NCBI RefSeq assembly: GCF_009914755.1
Contig: NC_060935.1
From: the human T2T-CHM13v2.0 reference genome, Homo sapiens
DNA: 64,000 bases
Reading direction: 5' to 3' (one strand)
Position 1 is the first letter of the stretch, and each line of letters opens with the position of its first letter. Below the pieces are notes generated by a model that was given only the letters and a program-made list of their open reading frames with translations, made no database searches and was not told the DNA's origin. Of this stretch, positions 11,410 to 15,993 are shown one piece after another. Position numbers and translations under genes: made by a program.

Positions 11410-12328
<919 letters not shown>

Positions 12329-12440
12329 TGACAAGGCCTTGGTCGGGAAGAGGCCCCTTGGTGGTCCCCACAAGGGTGCAGGTGCAAAGGCTAGCAATGA
12401 GGGAGTAGGAGGTAAGCTGTCCCTCCTCCATCCCCTGCAG

Positions 12441-12709
12441 GGAAGAACCGCTGCCCCAAAGGGGCCCAGTGCCTCCCTTTCTCCCATTACTTCCCCACCC
12501 CAGCTGACCTGTGTGAGAAGACTTGGAGCAATTCCTTCAAAGCCAGCCCTGAGCGACGGAACAGTGGGCGGTGTCTCCAGAAGTGGTTTGAGCCTGCTCA
12601 GGGCAACCCCAATGTGGCCGTGGCCCGCCTCTTCGCCAGCTCTGCCCCATCCTGGGAACTGTCCTACACCATCATGGTCTGCTCCCTGTTCCTGCCGTTC
12701 CTTTCCTGA
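12441..12709 (+). CDS. IZUMO1R: IZUMO1R/JUNO coding exon 4 (C-terminal GPI-anchor signal, TGA stop)
   Basis: CTGCAG| acceptor; (G)KNRCPKGAQCLPFSHYFPTPADLCEKTW...GNPNVAVARLFASSAPSWELSYTIMVCSLFLPFLS*; exon lengths 138+210+136+269=753 nt = 250 aa plus stop. Confidence 0.97.
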
Positions 12710-12779
12710 GAGCCCTTCTTCTCCCACTCACATTCCTGCATGTCCACCAACTGTGGGTCAGGCCAGGCCATGGCCTACC

Positions 12780-12885
12780 TCCTTCCTCAGGCCCTCCCCT
12801 AAAAGCAGTGGCATGGGCTAGGGACTGCAGTCCCACCCAGTCCCTAGCCCATGCCACTGCTTTTAGGGGAGGGCCTGAGGAAGGA
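12780..12885. repeat. Perfect 48-bp inverted repeat, 10-nt spacer, in IZUMO1R 3'UTR
   Basis: 12780-12827 TCCTTCCTCAGG...GGGCTAGGGACTG is the exact reverse complement of 12838-12885 CAGTCCCTAGCCC...CCTGAGGAAGGA. Confidence 0.98.
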
Positions 12886-13143
12886 AGTGCCCCTGAGGCT
12901 TCAGCGGCTGGTGCCTGCAACCTGCACATTTGGTCCGAGACCCCCTCCACTGCTCTGCTCTATCTTAGCTGGCCTAGGAGGCAGCTGGGGGCTGGAAGTG
13001 CCAAGGTGACTGGCCACCTCCTGCCTTGAGGGATGGGAGCTTTCAAGGGGCTCAAGGACTTTCCCATCCAGTGCACGCCTACCCCTTTCTGTGACAGAGC
13101 TGATGGTGGCAGACCTGGCCTCCCATCCTCCGACGGTGTCTTC

Positions 13144-13149
13144 AATAAA
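13144..13149 (+). terminator. Polyadenylation signal AATAAA of IZUMO1R
   Basis: First AATAAA after the stop codon (about 435 nt downstream), followed by a GT/T-rich stretch (CTTCCTGTGTCTTAGCTTTATGTG). Confidence 0.7.
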
Positions 13150-15993
13150 TCGGCACTCAACCTCTCCTCTGCTTGACTTCCTGTGTCTTAGCTTTATGTG
13201 CAGGGACCCAACATGCACACAGAGGGAGCCAGTTTGCCCACTGCACTGAAGTCTCAAAGTTAGGTTGTTACTTGCCTAACAATTATTAACTTCTTAATAT
13301 CTGCCACACATCCTCACAATAACTCTCTGATGGGAGTACTTTCAATGCCCCTTTTTTTTTCAATAAGTGACACCACACAAAGGACCCAAAGCCAGGGCGA
13401 GAGGGATGGGGCCACCCAGCACATCAGCTCTATTTTGGCTGCCAAAATTGAAGCAGCTACCTCGACTGCCTTCAGGGTTCCCTCTTCCTTTTAACCCATT
13501 CATTTTACCCCCAGAATCACAGCACACTGGTCTAACATTTTGGAAACCCGAGTTCTAATCTGACCTTTTTGCTTTCTATATGACTTTTGGCAACTCCTGT
13601 GATCTTCATTAAGACTGCCTTAATTTCTCTCTCTGCTGAAAGGAATGAGTTAGTTGGATTTAACTTATGAAAAAGAAGTAAGAAAAAGGAAAAAGCTAGC
13701 AACCTTGTTTGCCAGGAGATAGTGTGTGCTTCTCAGATAGCATACTATCTGAGAAGACCTCAAGAATGAAGTATTAGAACTGAACTGGGGATGGGGCCCT
13801 GACCTCGCACCCCAGCTGTAAGTAGACAAGCAGCTGACCTGCCCACCCAGCACTTTCCGGAGCCTGGAGCCGGGCAGCTTCCCAGCAGTAGATGATGCTT
13901 TCCCCACAACCTTTTCTTTGACAAAGAGAAAGTTCTAGCATGGCTGCACTTGATTTGACTGGCTTTTCTAACAACTGTCCATTCTTGCCAGACTCCAGCC
14001 AGCCCTGCTCATTGCTTAAACTCGGCCTCCATTCCTTCTGCACTCGCCTCACAGGCCCATCCACAGAGCAGATCTTGTCTCAGGGGAGGCACTGGAGTCA
14101 CAAAACCTACAAAGAGCGTCCTTCCAAGTGCTGCCCTCGGTGTCTAGAGTAGTAGACAGATGACAGCTGCAGTGGGGACAAAGCTGTTCATAGGAAGTCT
14201 GAAAGAAAGGGGCTGGGTGGGGGTCTCTGAGAAGGCCTCACAAAGGGGTGAGGCTGGAACCCCAAAAAAGGAGAGCAGCTGAGAACAGAAGGGAAGTGCT
14301 AGTCAAAACCCAGTGGAGGCCCCAAAGTATGAGCCAGACAAAGCAGGACCTTCAATTGCTCTTAAATTAATAAATTGTGGCTTAAAAAGTACATATAAAT
14401 GTATCAAAAATCTCTTAAAGAGCTTAAGAAATTTAAAATCTCTTGAAAACTGAGGTGTCTGTGGGTGTGTGGTTGATAATAAAGCTGAGAGGTTAATGCC
14501 CTTTTTAAAGTGTTTTTAAATATAACGAATTGCCAAAAGAAGGTTAAAACTGGAATGGACAAAACAAGAGTAATCTGGAAGCCCTAATAATTTGATACTT
14601 ATTGATCACTTACCATGCACCCAGGATCTCTGGGAAGTACATAATATATGTTAGCTCATTTGATCCTCACAAAAGCCTTATTATCCTTGTTGTATTATAA
14701 TATCATTTTTTACTATTCTCATTTTTCAGATTGGGACATAAATATAAGTAGAAACCAGCTAAGTCTGAACCCACGGTTCCAGCTCACAGGCTTACACTGA
14801 ACAGCCTGATCTGTAGTTGAGTTGAACTGATGTGGATTTGGGAGTGGTGGGAGAGAGGGAGGGATAGCTGGTGGCAAGTCACAGTCAGGAAAGAGACTGA
14901 GTTCTACCCCTTCATGTGATTAGGAGTCATAACCCACAGGTCACACTGACAGTTTAAAAGTAAAAAGGCTTCCAAGTTAACTCACCTGGGGTAGGTCTTG
15001 TGATTCATGGTGACATCCTTTCCTTGAGAAAGAATCTTATTATGAGTTCCCAAATTGTTGACATACTGATTAATGTGTAGCCTACCGACATTGAAAAGGG
15101 TGATTTTTTTTTTTTTTTTTTTTTGAGACAGAGTCCAGAAGACTCCCAACTTTGTTAGTGTGTCTTCCTGGGTCATTATTCACATTTGGCTTCCAATAAA
15201 CCTTTACAAATTATTTCTGCTTCCAATAAACCTTTACAAATTGTTACAAATAGCCTTAATTTTGATCAACAGGAGGAGTGATGGGTTTTAAGCAAAGGAG
15301 TAGAACTGTCAGATTTGCAGTTAGATTGTGTGTTTTAATCAGAGTGATCCATGCACATGGCTCACAAACATCGGCCAAGGGATTTCTAATGCAAAGCAAG
15401 AGAGCAGCTGCCAGCTCACTCATCCATCAGGTTCCTACCCTGGGAGCACCCCTTCTAACCATTTTTGGGTTTAGCTATAAAAAAGTGACAAAATGTGACT
15501 TACCTTTTCTGCCACACATTCAGACTATCTTTTTGCTCTCTGTTCTGTTTGAGTTTCTCAACTTAATCCTCCAATCTTTTTAATTCTGGCAGTTCACTTT
15601 TAATTTCCAAGAGACTTTTTTTTTTCCACAGCCTGCTGTTTTTTGTTTCATGGATGTAATATCTTCTCAAATGTCACTGAAGATCTAATTAGAATGTTTT
15701 TAAGCTTGTTTTGAGTCTCTGAATGACCTGTTTCCTCCAAGGTCAATCTGTTCTGTTTTCTTTATCGTCTCCTACGTGCTGCTCGTTCTCTCTGAGTCTG
15801 GTGGCTTTGGCTGTCTATCTTTGGCTGTCATATTTAAGAATGAGGAGCCGAGTTGATTTTATAGCAAGCTAGTATAGGTTTCCTCCATGGTTTTATATAA
15901 GGATCTTCATTTCAGTGCTGCTATTTGTAACAATTTGTAAAGGTTTACTGGTATGTGAGAAGAGCTTGTTGAGAGAAAGACCTTGCTTCAGAG

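What the first reader, a model, noticed from the sequence alone, without database searches (positions are those of the whole stretch)
12780..12885. Perfect 48-bp hairpin in the 3'UTR of the egg receptor JUNO
Seen: 70 nt after the stop codon and before the AATAAA, two 48-nt arms are exact reverse complements around a 10-nt loop (CAGTCCCACC), and I do not recognise them as a repeat family. A 14-bp palindrome, GGGACTGCAGTCCC (12821-12834), overlaps the turn, which suggests origin by fold-back template switching. Zero mismatches means it is recent or actively homogenised. Known: dsRNA stems of this length can be substrates for ADAR, Staufen, PKR and Drosha/Dicer, and oocyte mRNAs are mainly regulated post-transcriptionally. 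Inference: it may be a lineage-specific cis-regulator of JUNO mRNA or a source of small RNA; at DNA level it could extrude a cruciform.
Basis: partly seen in the sequence, partly recalled or inferred. Interest (0 to 1): 0.8.

Follow-up and report, generated by a model that had tools for sequence, protein, structure and literature searches.

The report
Perfect template-switch hairpin in JUNO 3'UTR
The messenger RNA tail of the human egg receptor JUNO carries a real, single-copy, flawless 48-base-pair hairpin that is most likely a by-product of DNA-replication template switching in apes, with no evidence yet that it regulates anything.

Summary
Arms 12780-12827 and 12838-12885 are perfect reverse complements around the 10-nt spacer CAGTCCCACC. 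They lie 70 nt after the TGA stop and upstream of the only AATAAA, at 13144.

- **Fold strength:** the RNA folds at -122.4 kcal/mol, z = -12.7, with 0 of 200 shuffles as good.
- **Rarity:** it is the only inverted repeat of 18 nt or more in the 64-kb window. It far exceeds anything in 200 kb of flank.
- **Copy number and family:** it is single-copy in the genome and belongs to no Rfam family.
- **Published record:** a great-ape catalogue of template-switch mutations lists an event that maps onto the spacer, with human marked as the ancestral state.

My reading is a template-switch inverted duplication of hominid age. It is probably older than the human-chimpanzee or human-gorilla split. Under neutrality it is probably younger than about 30 million years. 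Its centre has kept mutating.

Function as a double-stranded RNA element (ADAR, Drosha or Staufen substrate) is possible but untested. About 0.9% of such hairpins are annotated as miRNAs. I could not examine primate alignments, oocyte reads or human variation. It is a new member of a known kind, of moderate interest.

The parts
12780..12827 (+). Left arm of the perfect inverted repeat (48 nt, pyrimidine-rich 5' half, no CpG)
   Evidence: Exact reverse complement of 12838-12885. Composition A9 C16 G13 T10, CpG 0.
12828..12837 (+). 10-nt spacer / apical loop CAGTCCCACC. Its first 7 nt repeat the first 7 nt of the right arm.
   Evidence: Spacer versus the next 10 nt (CAGTCCCTAG) is 7 of 10 identical, and the direct 7-mer CAGTCCC occurs at 12828 and 12838. 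Walker et al. event 512 (GRCh38 chr11:94307811-94307826) maps here to within a few nt.
12838..12885 (+). Right arm of the perfect inverted repeat (48 nt)
12777..12888 (+). Extended stem-loop: 51-nt arms at 98%, with one C/A mismatch at 12779/12886
   Evidence: The MFE structures pair this extension.
12821..12834 (.). 14-bp spacerless palindrome GGGACTGCAGTCCC, straddling the end of the left arm and the start of the spacer
   Evidence: self reverse complement = True.
12707..12709 (+). IZUMO1R stop codon TGA, 70 nt before the left arm
   Evidence: and the hub annotation (coding part ends at 12709).
12710..13165 (+). Annotated 3'UTR of NM_001199206.4, which contains the hairpin
   Evidence: Hub annotation. 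The whole-UTR fold keeps the stem. No paralogous copy of the UTR exists in the genome.
13144..13149 (+). Only AATAAA poly(A) signal in the 3'UTR, downstream of the hairpin
   Evidence: 1 of 1 PAS-like hexamers found in 12710-13200.

Best explanation
The element is a single-copy inverted duplication made by short-range template switching during DNA replication. The polymerase left its template, copied about 48 nt of the neighbouring sequence in reverse complement, and returned. That left a perfect 48-bp inverted repeat in what is now the JUNO (IZUMO1R) 3'UTR.

It arose on the primate lineage. It is most likely older than the human-chimpanzee or human-gorilla split and younger than roughly 30 million years.

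As is typical for palindromes, the centre is the mutable part. The 10-nt spacer looks like a degenerate tandem copy of the first 10 nt of the right arm. A further template switch at the centre is recorded among great apes.

The element lies upstream of the only poly(A) signal, so it is transcribed with the mRNA. There it should form a very stable 48-51-bp RNA duplex.

The default expectation is that it is a neutral or mildly deleterious mutational by-product, not an evolved regulator.

- **Shown:** existence, perfection, single-copy status, position in the annotated UTR, predicted stability, and a catalogued template-switch event at the centre.
- **Inferred:** that the arms themselves arose by template switching, their age, that other apes share the arms, and neutrality.
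For: **Anatomy**
- The arms are perfect, with a 10-nt spacer.
- Chance is excluded: z -12.7 as RNA and -16.2 as DNA, with 0 of 200 shuffles each.
- It is the only inverted repeat of 18 nt or more in 64 kb.
- The next longest non-low-complexity perfect inverted repeats in 264 kb have arms of 21 and 16 nt.

**Not a transposon or repeat family**
- Only self matches appear in the 3.1-Gb assembly, at E <= 0.001 with a 146-nt query and at E <= 10 with the 725-nt exon.
- In one search the only other hits are 4 FOLR paralogue loci, matching coding positions 22-185 only.

**Published mechanism**
- Template switching creates perfect stems in one event.
- 53,666 putative events were found in human genic regions since the primate ancestor. 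Of these, 31,007 formed a new stem and 6,054 were of miRNA size (PMC10710096, Results read).

**Locus-specific record**
- PMC7954356 S2 Data lists event 512 at GRCh38 chr11:94307811-94307826: reverse, ambiguous_placement, human = ancestral, type 1342.
- It also lists event 513 at chr11:94308722-94308736.
- The two events are 910-911 nt apart.
- Window 11800-14800 holds exactly two perfect inverted repeats with arm >=9 and spacer <=20. They are this hairpin and a 12-nt one at 13729-13756, and their centres are 910 nt apart.
- Event 512 therefore sits on the hairpin's spacer.
- The event's mutation cluster is only 15-16 nt long. That implies the arms align between human and the compared ape or apes.

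**Age arithmetic:** P(no substitution in 96 nt) is 0.56 at the chimpanzee split, 0.46 at gorilla, 0.20 at orangutan, 0.05 at macaque and 0.005 at marmoset depth.

**Transcribed position:** there is a single AATAAA, at 13144, downstream of the hairpin.
Against: - I could examine no outgroup sequence. The defining test for a template switch is a parent-child comparison showing one-step replacement by an inverted copy. That test was not done for the arms.
- The catalogue event concerns the centre, not the creation of the arms. Its lineage placement is 'ambiguous'.
- The GRCh38-to-window mapping rests on the spacing of two events plus a recalled hg19/hg38 offset. It is good only to a few nucleotides.
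- Neutrality is a default, not a result. Arms that stay perfect for 6-9 million years are expected about half the time without selection, so they neither support nor exclude constraint.
- The 7-nt repeat in the spacer and the 14-bp palindrome are unlikely to predate the event by chance (4^-7 per register). The history therefore involved more than one step, and I cannot order the steps.
Confidence: 0.62

Rival explanations
1. The hairpin is a functional double-stranded RNA element in JUNO mRNA. It could be a substrate for ADAR editing, Staufen binding and decay, or Drosha cleavage that destabilises the mRNA. It could also be a nascent miRNA or endo-siRNA source whose products would be perfectly complementary to the opposite arm of the same mRNA. 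Either way it would tune JUNO levels in oocytes or silence the gene in somatic cells.
For: - It lies inside the annotated 3'UTR, upstream of the only poly(A) signal.
- The duplex is extremely stable and survives folding of the whole UTR.
- The duplex holds 19 adenosines, 3 of them in the UAG context. That this context is ADAR-preferred is recalled.
- A CNNC motif lies at 12890, about 13-16 nt past a predicted Drosha 3' cut.
- There are sub-threshold structural matches to perfect-hairpin miRNA families: mir-5444 at 61 bits and mir-4776 at 50 bits.
- Template-switch hairpins are a documented source of new miRNAs, accounting for 18 human genes (PMC10710096 abstract).
Against: - No Rfam family reaches its gathering score (61 against 90, 50 against 97). 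The hits score the same on both strands, which indicates generic structure.
- The stem of 48-51 bp exceeds the roughly 35-bp preference quoted in PMC10710096.
- There is no basal UG and no apical UGU or GUG.
- The base rate is 57 of 6,054 (0.9%) of such hairpins annotated as miRNAs. Template-switch events are also depleted in genes.
- Literature searches found nothing on this element: IZUMO1R + 'RNA editing' gave 0 papers. IZUMO1R + hairpin gave 10 papers, with none of the 9 listed titles about an RNA hairpin in this mRNA. IZUMO1R + microRNA + oocyte gave 9 papers, none about this element by title. The 17-mer from the arm gave 0 papers.
- No expression, editing or small-RNA data could be consulted.
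Confidence: 0.12
2. The inverted repeat is old, of early primate age or older. Its arms are kept identical by recurrent arm-to-arm template switching or gene conversion, that is, by homogenisation of a quasi-palindrome. The perfection would then reflect an ongoing mutational process rather than youth.
For: - Template switching was first proposed as the way near-perfect inverted repeats become perfect (PMC10710096 Results; PMC8604942 abstract in the listing).
- The locus has at least one further recorded template-switch event at its centre among great apes. This shows the palindrome is still active as a switching substrate.
- Zero differences in 96 nt has P of about 0.05 or less beyond macaque depth. 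If the repeat proved to be old, homogenisation would be required.
Against: - Nothing examined here shows the repeat to be old.
- Youth alone explains the perfection with P of about 0.5 at the African-ape depth.
- I had no primate sequences to look for concerted changes in both arms.
Confidence: 0.15
3. It is a fossil of a palindromic mobile element, meaning a MITE-like or MADE1-like element or transposon terminal inverted repeats.
For: Short palindromic elements do give hairpins and miRNA genes in human. This is recalled, for example MADE1 and mir-548.
Against: - It is single-copy: the 146-nt query finds only itself in 3.1 Gb. The 725-nt exon query at E <= 10 finds no other copy of the UTR.
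- It is 61% G+C and not AT-rich.
- The arms are perfect, although human DNA transposons have been inactive for tens of millions of years (recalled).
Confidence: 0.02
4. It is an assembly or sequencing artefact, a fold-back chimera, in T2T-CHM13.
For: None, beyond the general fact that palindromes can be created by library artefacts.
Against: - The GRCh38-based catalogue places two events 910-911 nt apart. That is the same as the T2T spacing between the hairpin centre and the next inverted repeat. GRCh38 therefore cannot lack the 58 nt of spacer plus right arm.
- RefSeq maps exon 5 of NM_001199206.4 as one uninterrupted block, 12441-13165, across it (hub annotation).
Confidence: 0.01

Closest known systems
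Template-switch-mutation (TSM) generated hairpins in primate genomes (Loytynoja & Goldman four-point model; Walker et al. 2021, PMC7954356; Monttinen et al. 2023, PMC10710096)
   Same: It is a perfect inverted copy directly beside its template and a single-copy local event in a transcribed genic region. The centre or loop was later remodelled by a second switch, the two-step pattern described for hsa-mir-4713 and mmu-mir-3086. The locus is itself in the hominid event list, as event 512.
   Different: The copied fragment of about 48 nt lies far in the tail, since the gold-standard median fragment is 12 nt and the maximum 128. The event that created the arms was not demonstrated here. The catalogue filed the site as 'Intergenic' and did not connect it with the JUNO 3'UTR.
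Perfect-palindrome miRNA precursors (Rfam mir-5444 RF03511, mir-4776 RF03889)
   Same: It is a long, nearly mismatch-free stem-loop that scores equally on both strands.
   Different: Scores are far below the gathering thresholds (61 against 90 and 50 against 97), with no shared sequence family. The stem is longer than typical, and small-RNA evidence was not examined. It is not a member.
3'UTR double-stranded RNA from inverted Alu pairs (ADAR hyper-editing, Staufen or PKR ligands); recalled knowledge, not from a call
   Same: It is an intramolecular duplex inside a 3'UTR, long enough (over 30 bp) to be bound by dsRNA-binding proteins.
   Different: It is 48 bp, perfect, single-copy and non-repeat. 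Inverted Alu duplexes are about 300 bp, imperfect and repeat-derived. No editing data were examined.
Drosha-cleaved mRNA hairpins (e.g. DGCR8 mRNA); recalled knowledge
   Same: It is a stem-loop embedded in an mRNA whose cleavage would destabilise the host transcript.
   Different: It has no conservation, no cleavage evidence, and lacks 2 of 3 recalled primary-sequence motifs.
Short DNA palindromes or cruciform-prone inverted repeats with centre-directed revision; reviews PMC7999016 and PMC9180970 seen in listings only
   Same: It has long perfect arms and a short spacer, and mutation is concentrated at the centre.
   Different: It is much shorter than the classic fragile palindromes of hundreds of bp, and it is GC-rich rather than AT-rich. 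No instability data exist for this site.

Membership tests
Template-switch-generated inverted repeat | An inverted copy lies adjacent to (within tens of nt of) its template, at or near 100% identity | tested here: met
   48 of 48 complementary, with a 10-nt spacer.
Template-switch-generated inverted repeat | A parent-child (outgroup) comparison shows that a cluster of differences is explained in one step by a reverse-complement copy | not testable with these tools
   No primate genomes are held: 'It has no relatives here'. The Walker S1 Data alignments were too large to read, and paper reading closed.
Template-switch-generated inverted repeat | The locus is recorded as a significant template-switch event in a systematic scan | tested here: met
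   Event 512, GRCh38 chr11:94307811-94307826, type 1342, human ancestral. It maps to the spacer by the 910-nt spacing check. This concerns the centre, not the creation of the arms.
Template-switch-generated inverted repeat | It is a local, single-copy event rather than a dispersed repeat | tested here: met
   Only self hits in the own assembly.
miRNA precursor (pri-miRNA) | Match to a curated family at or above its gathering score | tested here: not met
   The best hits are mir-5444 at 61 bits (threshold 90) and mir-4776 at 50.3 (threshold 97). 0 of 26 listed matches reach their threshold.
miRNA precursor (pri-miRNA) | Stem of about 35 bp with an unstructured apical loop of 10 nt or more (as quoted in PMC10710096) | tested here: inconclusive
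   The loop is 10 nt, which fits. The stem is 48-51 bp, which is too long. 35-38 bp would remain above a cut 13 bp from the base.
miRNA precursor (pri-miRNA) | Basal UG, apical UGU/GUG and downstream CNNC motifs (definitions recalled) | tested here: inconclusive
   A CNNC is present at 12890. There is no basal UG (CT or TA at the expected place) and no apical UGU or GUG.
miRNA precursor (pri-miRNA) | Defined stacks of about 22-nt reads in small-RNA libraries | not testable with these tools
   No read data are available.
Palindromic mobile element (MITE / MADE1-like) | Multiple dispersed copies in the genome | tested here: not met
   1 locus only.
ADAR / Staufen / PKR dsRNA ligand in a 3'UTR | An intramolecular duplex of roughly 20-30 bp or more within the mature mRNA | tested here: met
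   A 48-51-bp stem is predicted in isolation and in the whole UTR. It lies upstream of the only PAS. This is prediction only.
ADAR / Staufen / PKR dsRNA ligand in a 3'UTR | Observed A-to-I editing or protein cross-linking at the site | not testable with these tools
   No data were available. The search IZUMO1R + 'RNA editing' found 0 papers.

The most novel reading that the evidence does not exclude
The hairpin is a hominid-specific, functional dsRNA switch in JUNO mRNA. Its perfect 48-bp stem is edited by ADAR, or cut by Drosha or Dicer into small RNAs that are perfectly complementary to the other arm of the same transcript. This gives the egg's sperm receptor an ape-specific layer of post-transcriptional control. 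Ape-to-ape differences at the hairpin centre (template-switch event 512) would then change that control between species.
Probability: 0.1. Interest if true: 0.75.

Novelty: new member of a known kind. Interest (0 to 1): 0.38.

Why it matters
JUNO is the only known egg-surface receptor essential for sperm binding, and oocytes rely on stored, post-transcriptionally controlled mRNAs. A 48-bp perfect RNA duplex in its 3'UTR is long enough to engage ADAR, Staufen, PKR or Drosha.

If it acts, it would be a young, ape-lineage modifier of a fertilisation gene. It would also be a clean natural example of template switching creating a regulatory RNA structure inside an mRNA rather than in an intron.

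If it does not act, it is still a useful, well-bounded example of the long tail of template-switch mutations. It would also be a place where palindrome-centre turnover between apes can be read directly.

At the DNA level, such an inverted repeat is a plausible local hotspot for small rearrangements in a fertility gene.

Tried and rejected
**Leads that gave nothing**
- Rfam at a permissive E-value gave only sub-threshold, strand-symmetric matches to perfect-hairpin miRNA families. Family membership is rejected.
- The repeat-family or transposon idea is rejected, because the locus is single-copy.
- The FOLR paralogues cannot serve as an internal outgroup. They match only coding positions 22-185 of the exon, not the UTR.
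- I looked for microhomology or direct repeats in the flanks that would show which arm is the copy. I found only 7-mers: TCAGGCC at 12758/12787, CCTGAGG at 12874/12892 and CAGTCCC at 12828/12838. The first two are not beyond chance and do not decide the direction.

**Literature searches with no relevant result**
- IZUMO1R + UTR: 25 papers, and none of the 20 listed is about this element by title.
- IZUMO1R + RNA editing: 0 papers.
- IZUMO1R + hairpin: 10 papers, none relevant by title.
- IZUMO1R + microRNA + oocyte: 9 papers, none relevant by title.
- A 17-mer of the arm: 0 papers.

**Supplements that were not readable or not useful**
- PMC9435742, on human polymorphic template switches, has PDFs only.
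- PMC5453318 has its data as PDFs.
- The PMC10710096 spreadsheet is listed, but it covers miRNA loci and I did not open it.
- PMC7954356 S1 Data was too large.

- Earlier findings were not open.

Full report
**1. Observation**

The sequence at 12780-12885 is exactly as described. The left arm, 12780-12827, is the perfect reverse complement of the right arm, 12838-12885 (48 nt). The two are separated by the 10-nt spacer CAGTCCCACC.

The pairing can be extended by two more pairs beyond one C/A mismatch. That gives 51-nt arms at 98%, 12777-12827 and 12838-12888.

The TGA stop is at 12707-12709, so exactly 70 nt precede the left arm. The only poly(A)-signal-like hexamer between 12710 and 13200 is AATAAA at 13144, 21 nt before the annotated mRNA end. 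GGGACTGCAGTCCC at 12821-12834 is a true 14-bp palindrome.

**2. More than chance**

| Fold | MFE (kcal/mol) | Shuffle mean +/- sd | z | Shuffles as good |
|---|---|---|---|---|
| 146-nt stretch as RNA | -122.4 | -61.1 +/- 4.8 | -12.7 | 0 of 200 |
| As DNA | -68.2 | -22.2 +/- 2.8 | -16.2 | 0 of 200 |

- The stem is retained when the full 456-nt 3'UTR is folded.
- The repeat finder reports it as the only inverted repeat of 18 nt or more within 200 nt in the whole 64-kb window.
- My own scan covered the window plus 200 kb of flanking chromosome. It found three non-low-complexity perfect inverted repeats with arm >=14 and spacer <=30, with arms of 48 (this one), 21 and 16 nt. Another 14 were (TA)n-like or otherwise low-complexity.

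**3. What it is not**

- It is not a dispersed repeat. A 146-nt query against the window's own 3.1-Gb assembly finds only the locus and its own reverse strand.
- The whole last exon, searched at E <= 10, adds only four FOLR paralogue loci at chr11:72.07-72.15 Mb. They match coding positions 22-185 at 71-76% identity, and none matches the UTR.
- It belongs to no Rfam family. The best hits are mir-5444 (61 bits against a gathering score of 90) and mir-4776 (50 against 97). Both score the same on both strands, which is what a generic perfect hairpin does. 0 of 26 listed matches reach their threshold.

**4. What the literature adds**

Template switching during replication makes perfect inverted copies in one step. 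Monttinen et al. counted 53,666 putative events in human genic regions since the primate ancestor. Of these, 31,007 created a new RNA stem and 6,054 were of miRNA size. Only 57 of the 6,054 (0.9%) are annotated miRNAs. Events are depleted in protein-coding genes (PMC10710096; abstract and the whole Results section read).

Walker et al. scanned human, chimpanzee and gorilla alignments and list 4,017 significant events with GRCh38 coordinates (PMC7954356; passages, sections 8 part 1 and 19, and the header of S2 Data read). Searching their two readable supplements for numbers beginning 9429, 9430, 9431 or 9403, and for the gene names, gave two rows.

| Event | GRCh38 position | Orientation | Set | Human state | Type |
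|---|---|---|---|---|---|
| 512 | chr11:94307811-94307826 | reverse | ambiguous_placement | ancestral | 1342 |
| 513 | chr11:94308722-94308736 | reverse | partially_significant | descendant | not given |

Both events are filed in the 'Intergenic' sheet of S3 Data.

**5. Mapping those rows to the window**

The window is in T2T coordinates, so I needed an independent check. In window 11800-14800 there are exactly two perfect inverted repeats with arm >=9 and spacer <=20. One is the 48-nt hairpin, with its centre near 12832.5. The other is a 12-nt repeat at 13729-13740/13745-13756, with its centre near 13742.5. They are 910 nt apart. The two catalogue events are 911 nt apart start to start and 910 nt end to end.

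A recalled hg19/hg38 offset, which comes from no call, independently put event 512 at 12828/9-12843. I therefore take event 512 to lie on the spacer of this hairpin, to within a few nucleotides, and event 513 on the second inverted repeat.

The same spacing also argues that GRCh38 carries the right arm. The hairpin is therefore not a T2T artefact.

**6. What event 512 implies**

The mutation cluster is only 15-16 nt long. Human and the compared ape or apes therefore differ at the centre, not across the arms. The catalogue's own field says the human allele is the ancestral state.

I infer that the 48-nt arms already existed before at least one of the human-chimpanzee or human-gorilla splits, and that the centre was later rewritten by a second switch in another lineage. 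The same two-step pattern, stem creation followed by loop change, is described for hsa-mir-4713 and mmu-mir-3086.

This inference has limits:
- The placement is 'ambiguous'.
- I could not see the alignment, because S1 Data was too large and paper reading closed.
- The event does not document the creation of the arms.

**7. Internal signs of a multi-step centre**

The spacer CAGTCCCACC shares its first 7 nt with the first 10 nt of the right arm, CAGTCCCTAG (7 of 10 identical). This is what creates the 14-bp palindrome with the end of the left arm. Removing the spacer would leave a spacerless 96-bp palindrome.

A specific 7-nt coincidence has probability 4^-7, so the centre is probably a product of the same process or of a later one. 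That process could be a small duplication or a template switch at the hairpin tip. Long perfect palindromes are known to be revised at their centres (recalled; the reviews were seen only as listings). I could not decide which arm is the copy, because the flank 7-mers are uninformative.

**8. Age**

The arms hold no CpG. I used recalled per-lineage divergences.

| Depth of split | Divergence used | P(no substitution in 96 nt) |
|---|---|---|
| Chimpanzee | 0.6% | 0.56 |
| Gorilla | 0.8% | 0.46 |
| Orangutan | 1.7% | 0.20 |
| Macaque | 3.2% | 0.05 |
| Marmoset | 5.5% | 0.005 |

The values are slightly higher at 0.8 times the rate. Perfection therefore bounds a neutral repeat to roughly 30 million years or less, but it says nothing finer. 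However, 'recent' need not mean human-specific, and the catalogue record points to an age greater than 6-9 million years.

**9. How it most likely works**

- **Shown:** a transcribed, single-copy, perfect inverted duplication with a recorded template switch at its centre.
- **Inferred as most likely (about 0.6):** it is a template-switch by-product with no evolved role. The RNA folds into a 48-51-bp duplex simply because the DNA is a palindrome.
- **Functional rival (about 0.12):** the duplex is long enough for ADAR, Staufen, PKR or Drosha. It has 19 duplex adenosines, 3 of them in UAG, and a CNNC at 12890. Against this, it lacks a basal UG and an apical UGU or GUG, and its stem is longer than the roughly 35-bp pri-miRNA optimum. 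The 0.9% base rate also weighs against it.
- **Homogenisation rival (about 0.15):** the repeat is old and is kept perfect by recurrent arm-to-arm switching.
- **Mobile element (0.02) and assembly artefact (0.01):** both are essentially excluded.

**10. Known or new**

The mechanism and the class are known, and the site is even in a published event list, where it is labelled intergenic. My searches found no paper describing an RNA hairpin in the JUNO 3'UTR (titles and abstract starts only). Subscription journals and supplements are not covered by those searches.

I file it as a new member of a known kind. It is unusual for its length, since the gold-standard copied fragments have a median of 12 nt and a maximum of 128, and for its host gene.

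**11. What is left open**

- Primate alignments.
- Human variation.
- Oocyte RNA, small-RNA and editing data.
- The alignment of event 512.
- Supplements I could not see that may bear on the claims: PDF tables of PMC9435742 and PMC5453318, S1 Data of PMC7954356, and the microinversion catalogue PMC8755829.

Noticed in passing
window 13729-13756: A 12-nt perfect inverted repeat (CTTCTCAGATAG / CTATCTGAGAAG, 4-nt spacer) lies about 565 nt past the IZUMO1R poly(A) end. It coincides with Walker et al. event 513 (GRCh38 chr11:94308722-94308736, partially_significant, human = descendant). This would be a template switch on the human side of the comparison.
   Followed up: partly
window 12766-12775: A 10-bp palindrome, GGCCATGGCC, lies immediately 5' of the left arm. 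It forms a small separate stem (12760-12776) in the RNA folds. The neighbourhood is generally rich in short palindromes.
   Followed up: no
window 12828-12847: The spacer and the first 10 nt of the right arm look like a degenerate 10-nt tandem duplicate (CAGTCCCACC / CAGTCCCTAG, 7 of 10 identical). Without the spacer the element would be a spacerless 96-bp palindrome.
   Followed up: partly
L004-L007 (G000:C11:72.07-72.15 Mb): Four loci match the coding part of IZUMO1R exon 5 (query positions 22-185) at 71-76% identity. They are presumably the FOLR1/2/3 cluster and a pseudogene (names recalled). The 3'UTR has no counterpart there.
   Followed up: no
L015:182-230 (G000:C11:93870182-93870230): This is the longest other non-low-complexity perfect inverted repeat in the 200-kb flank sample: 21-nt arms, 7-nt spacer, AT-rich. 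A 16-nt-arm repeat overlaps it just upstream.
   Followed up: no
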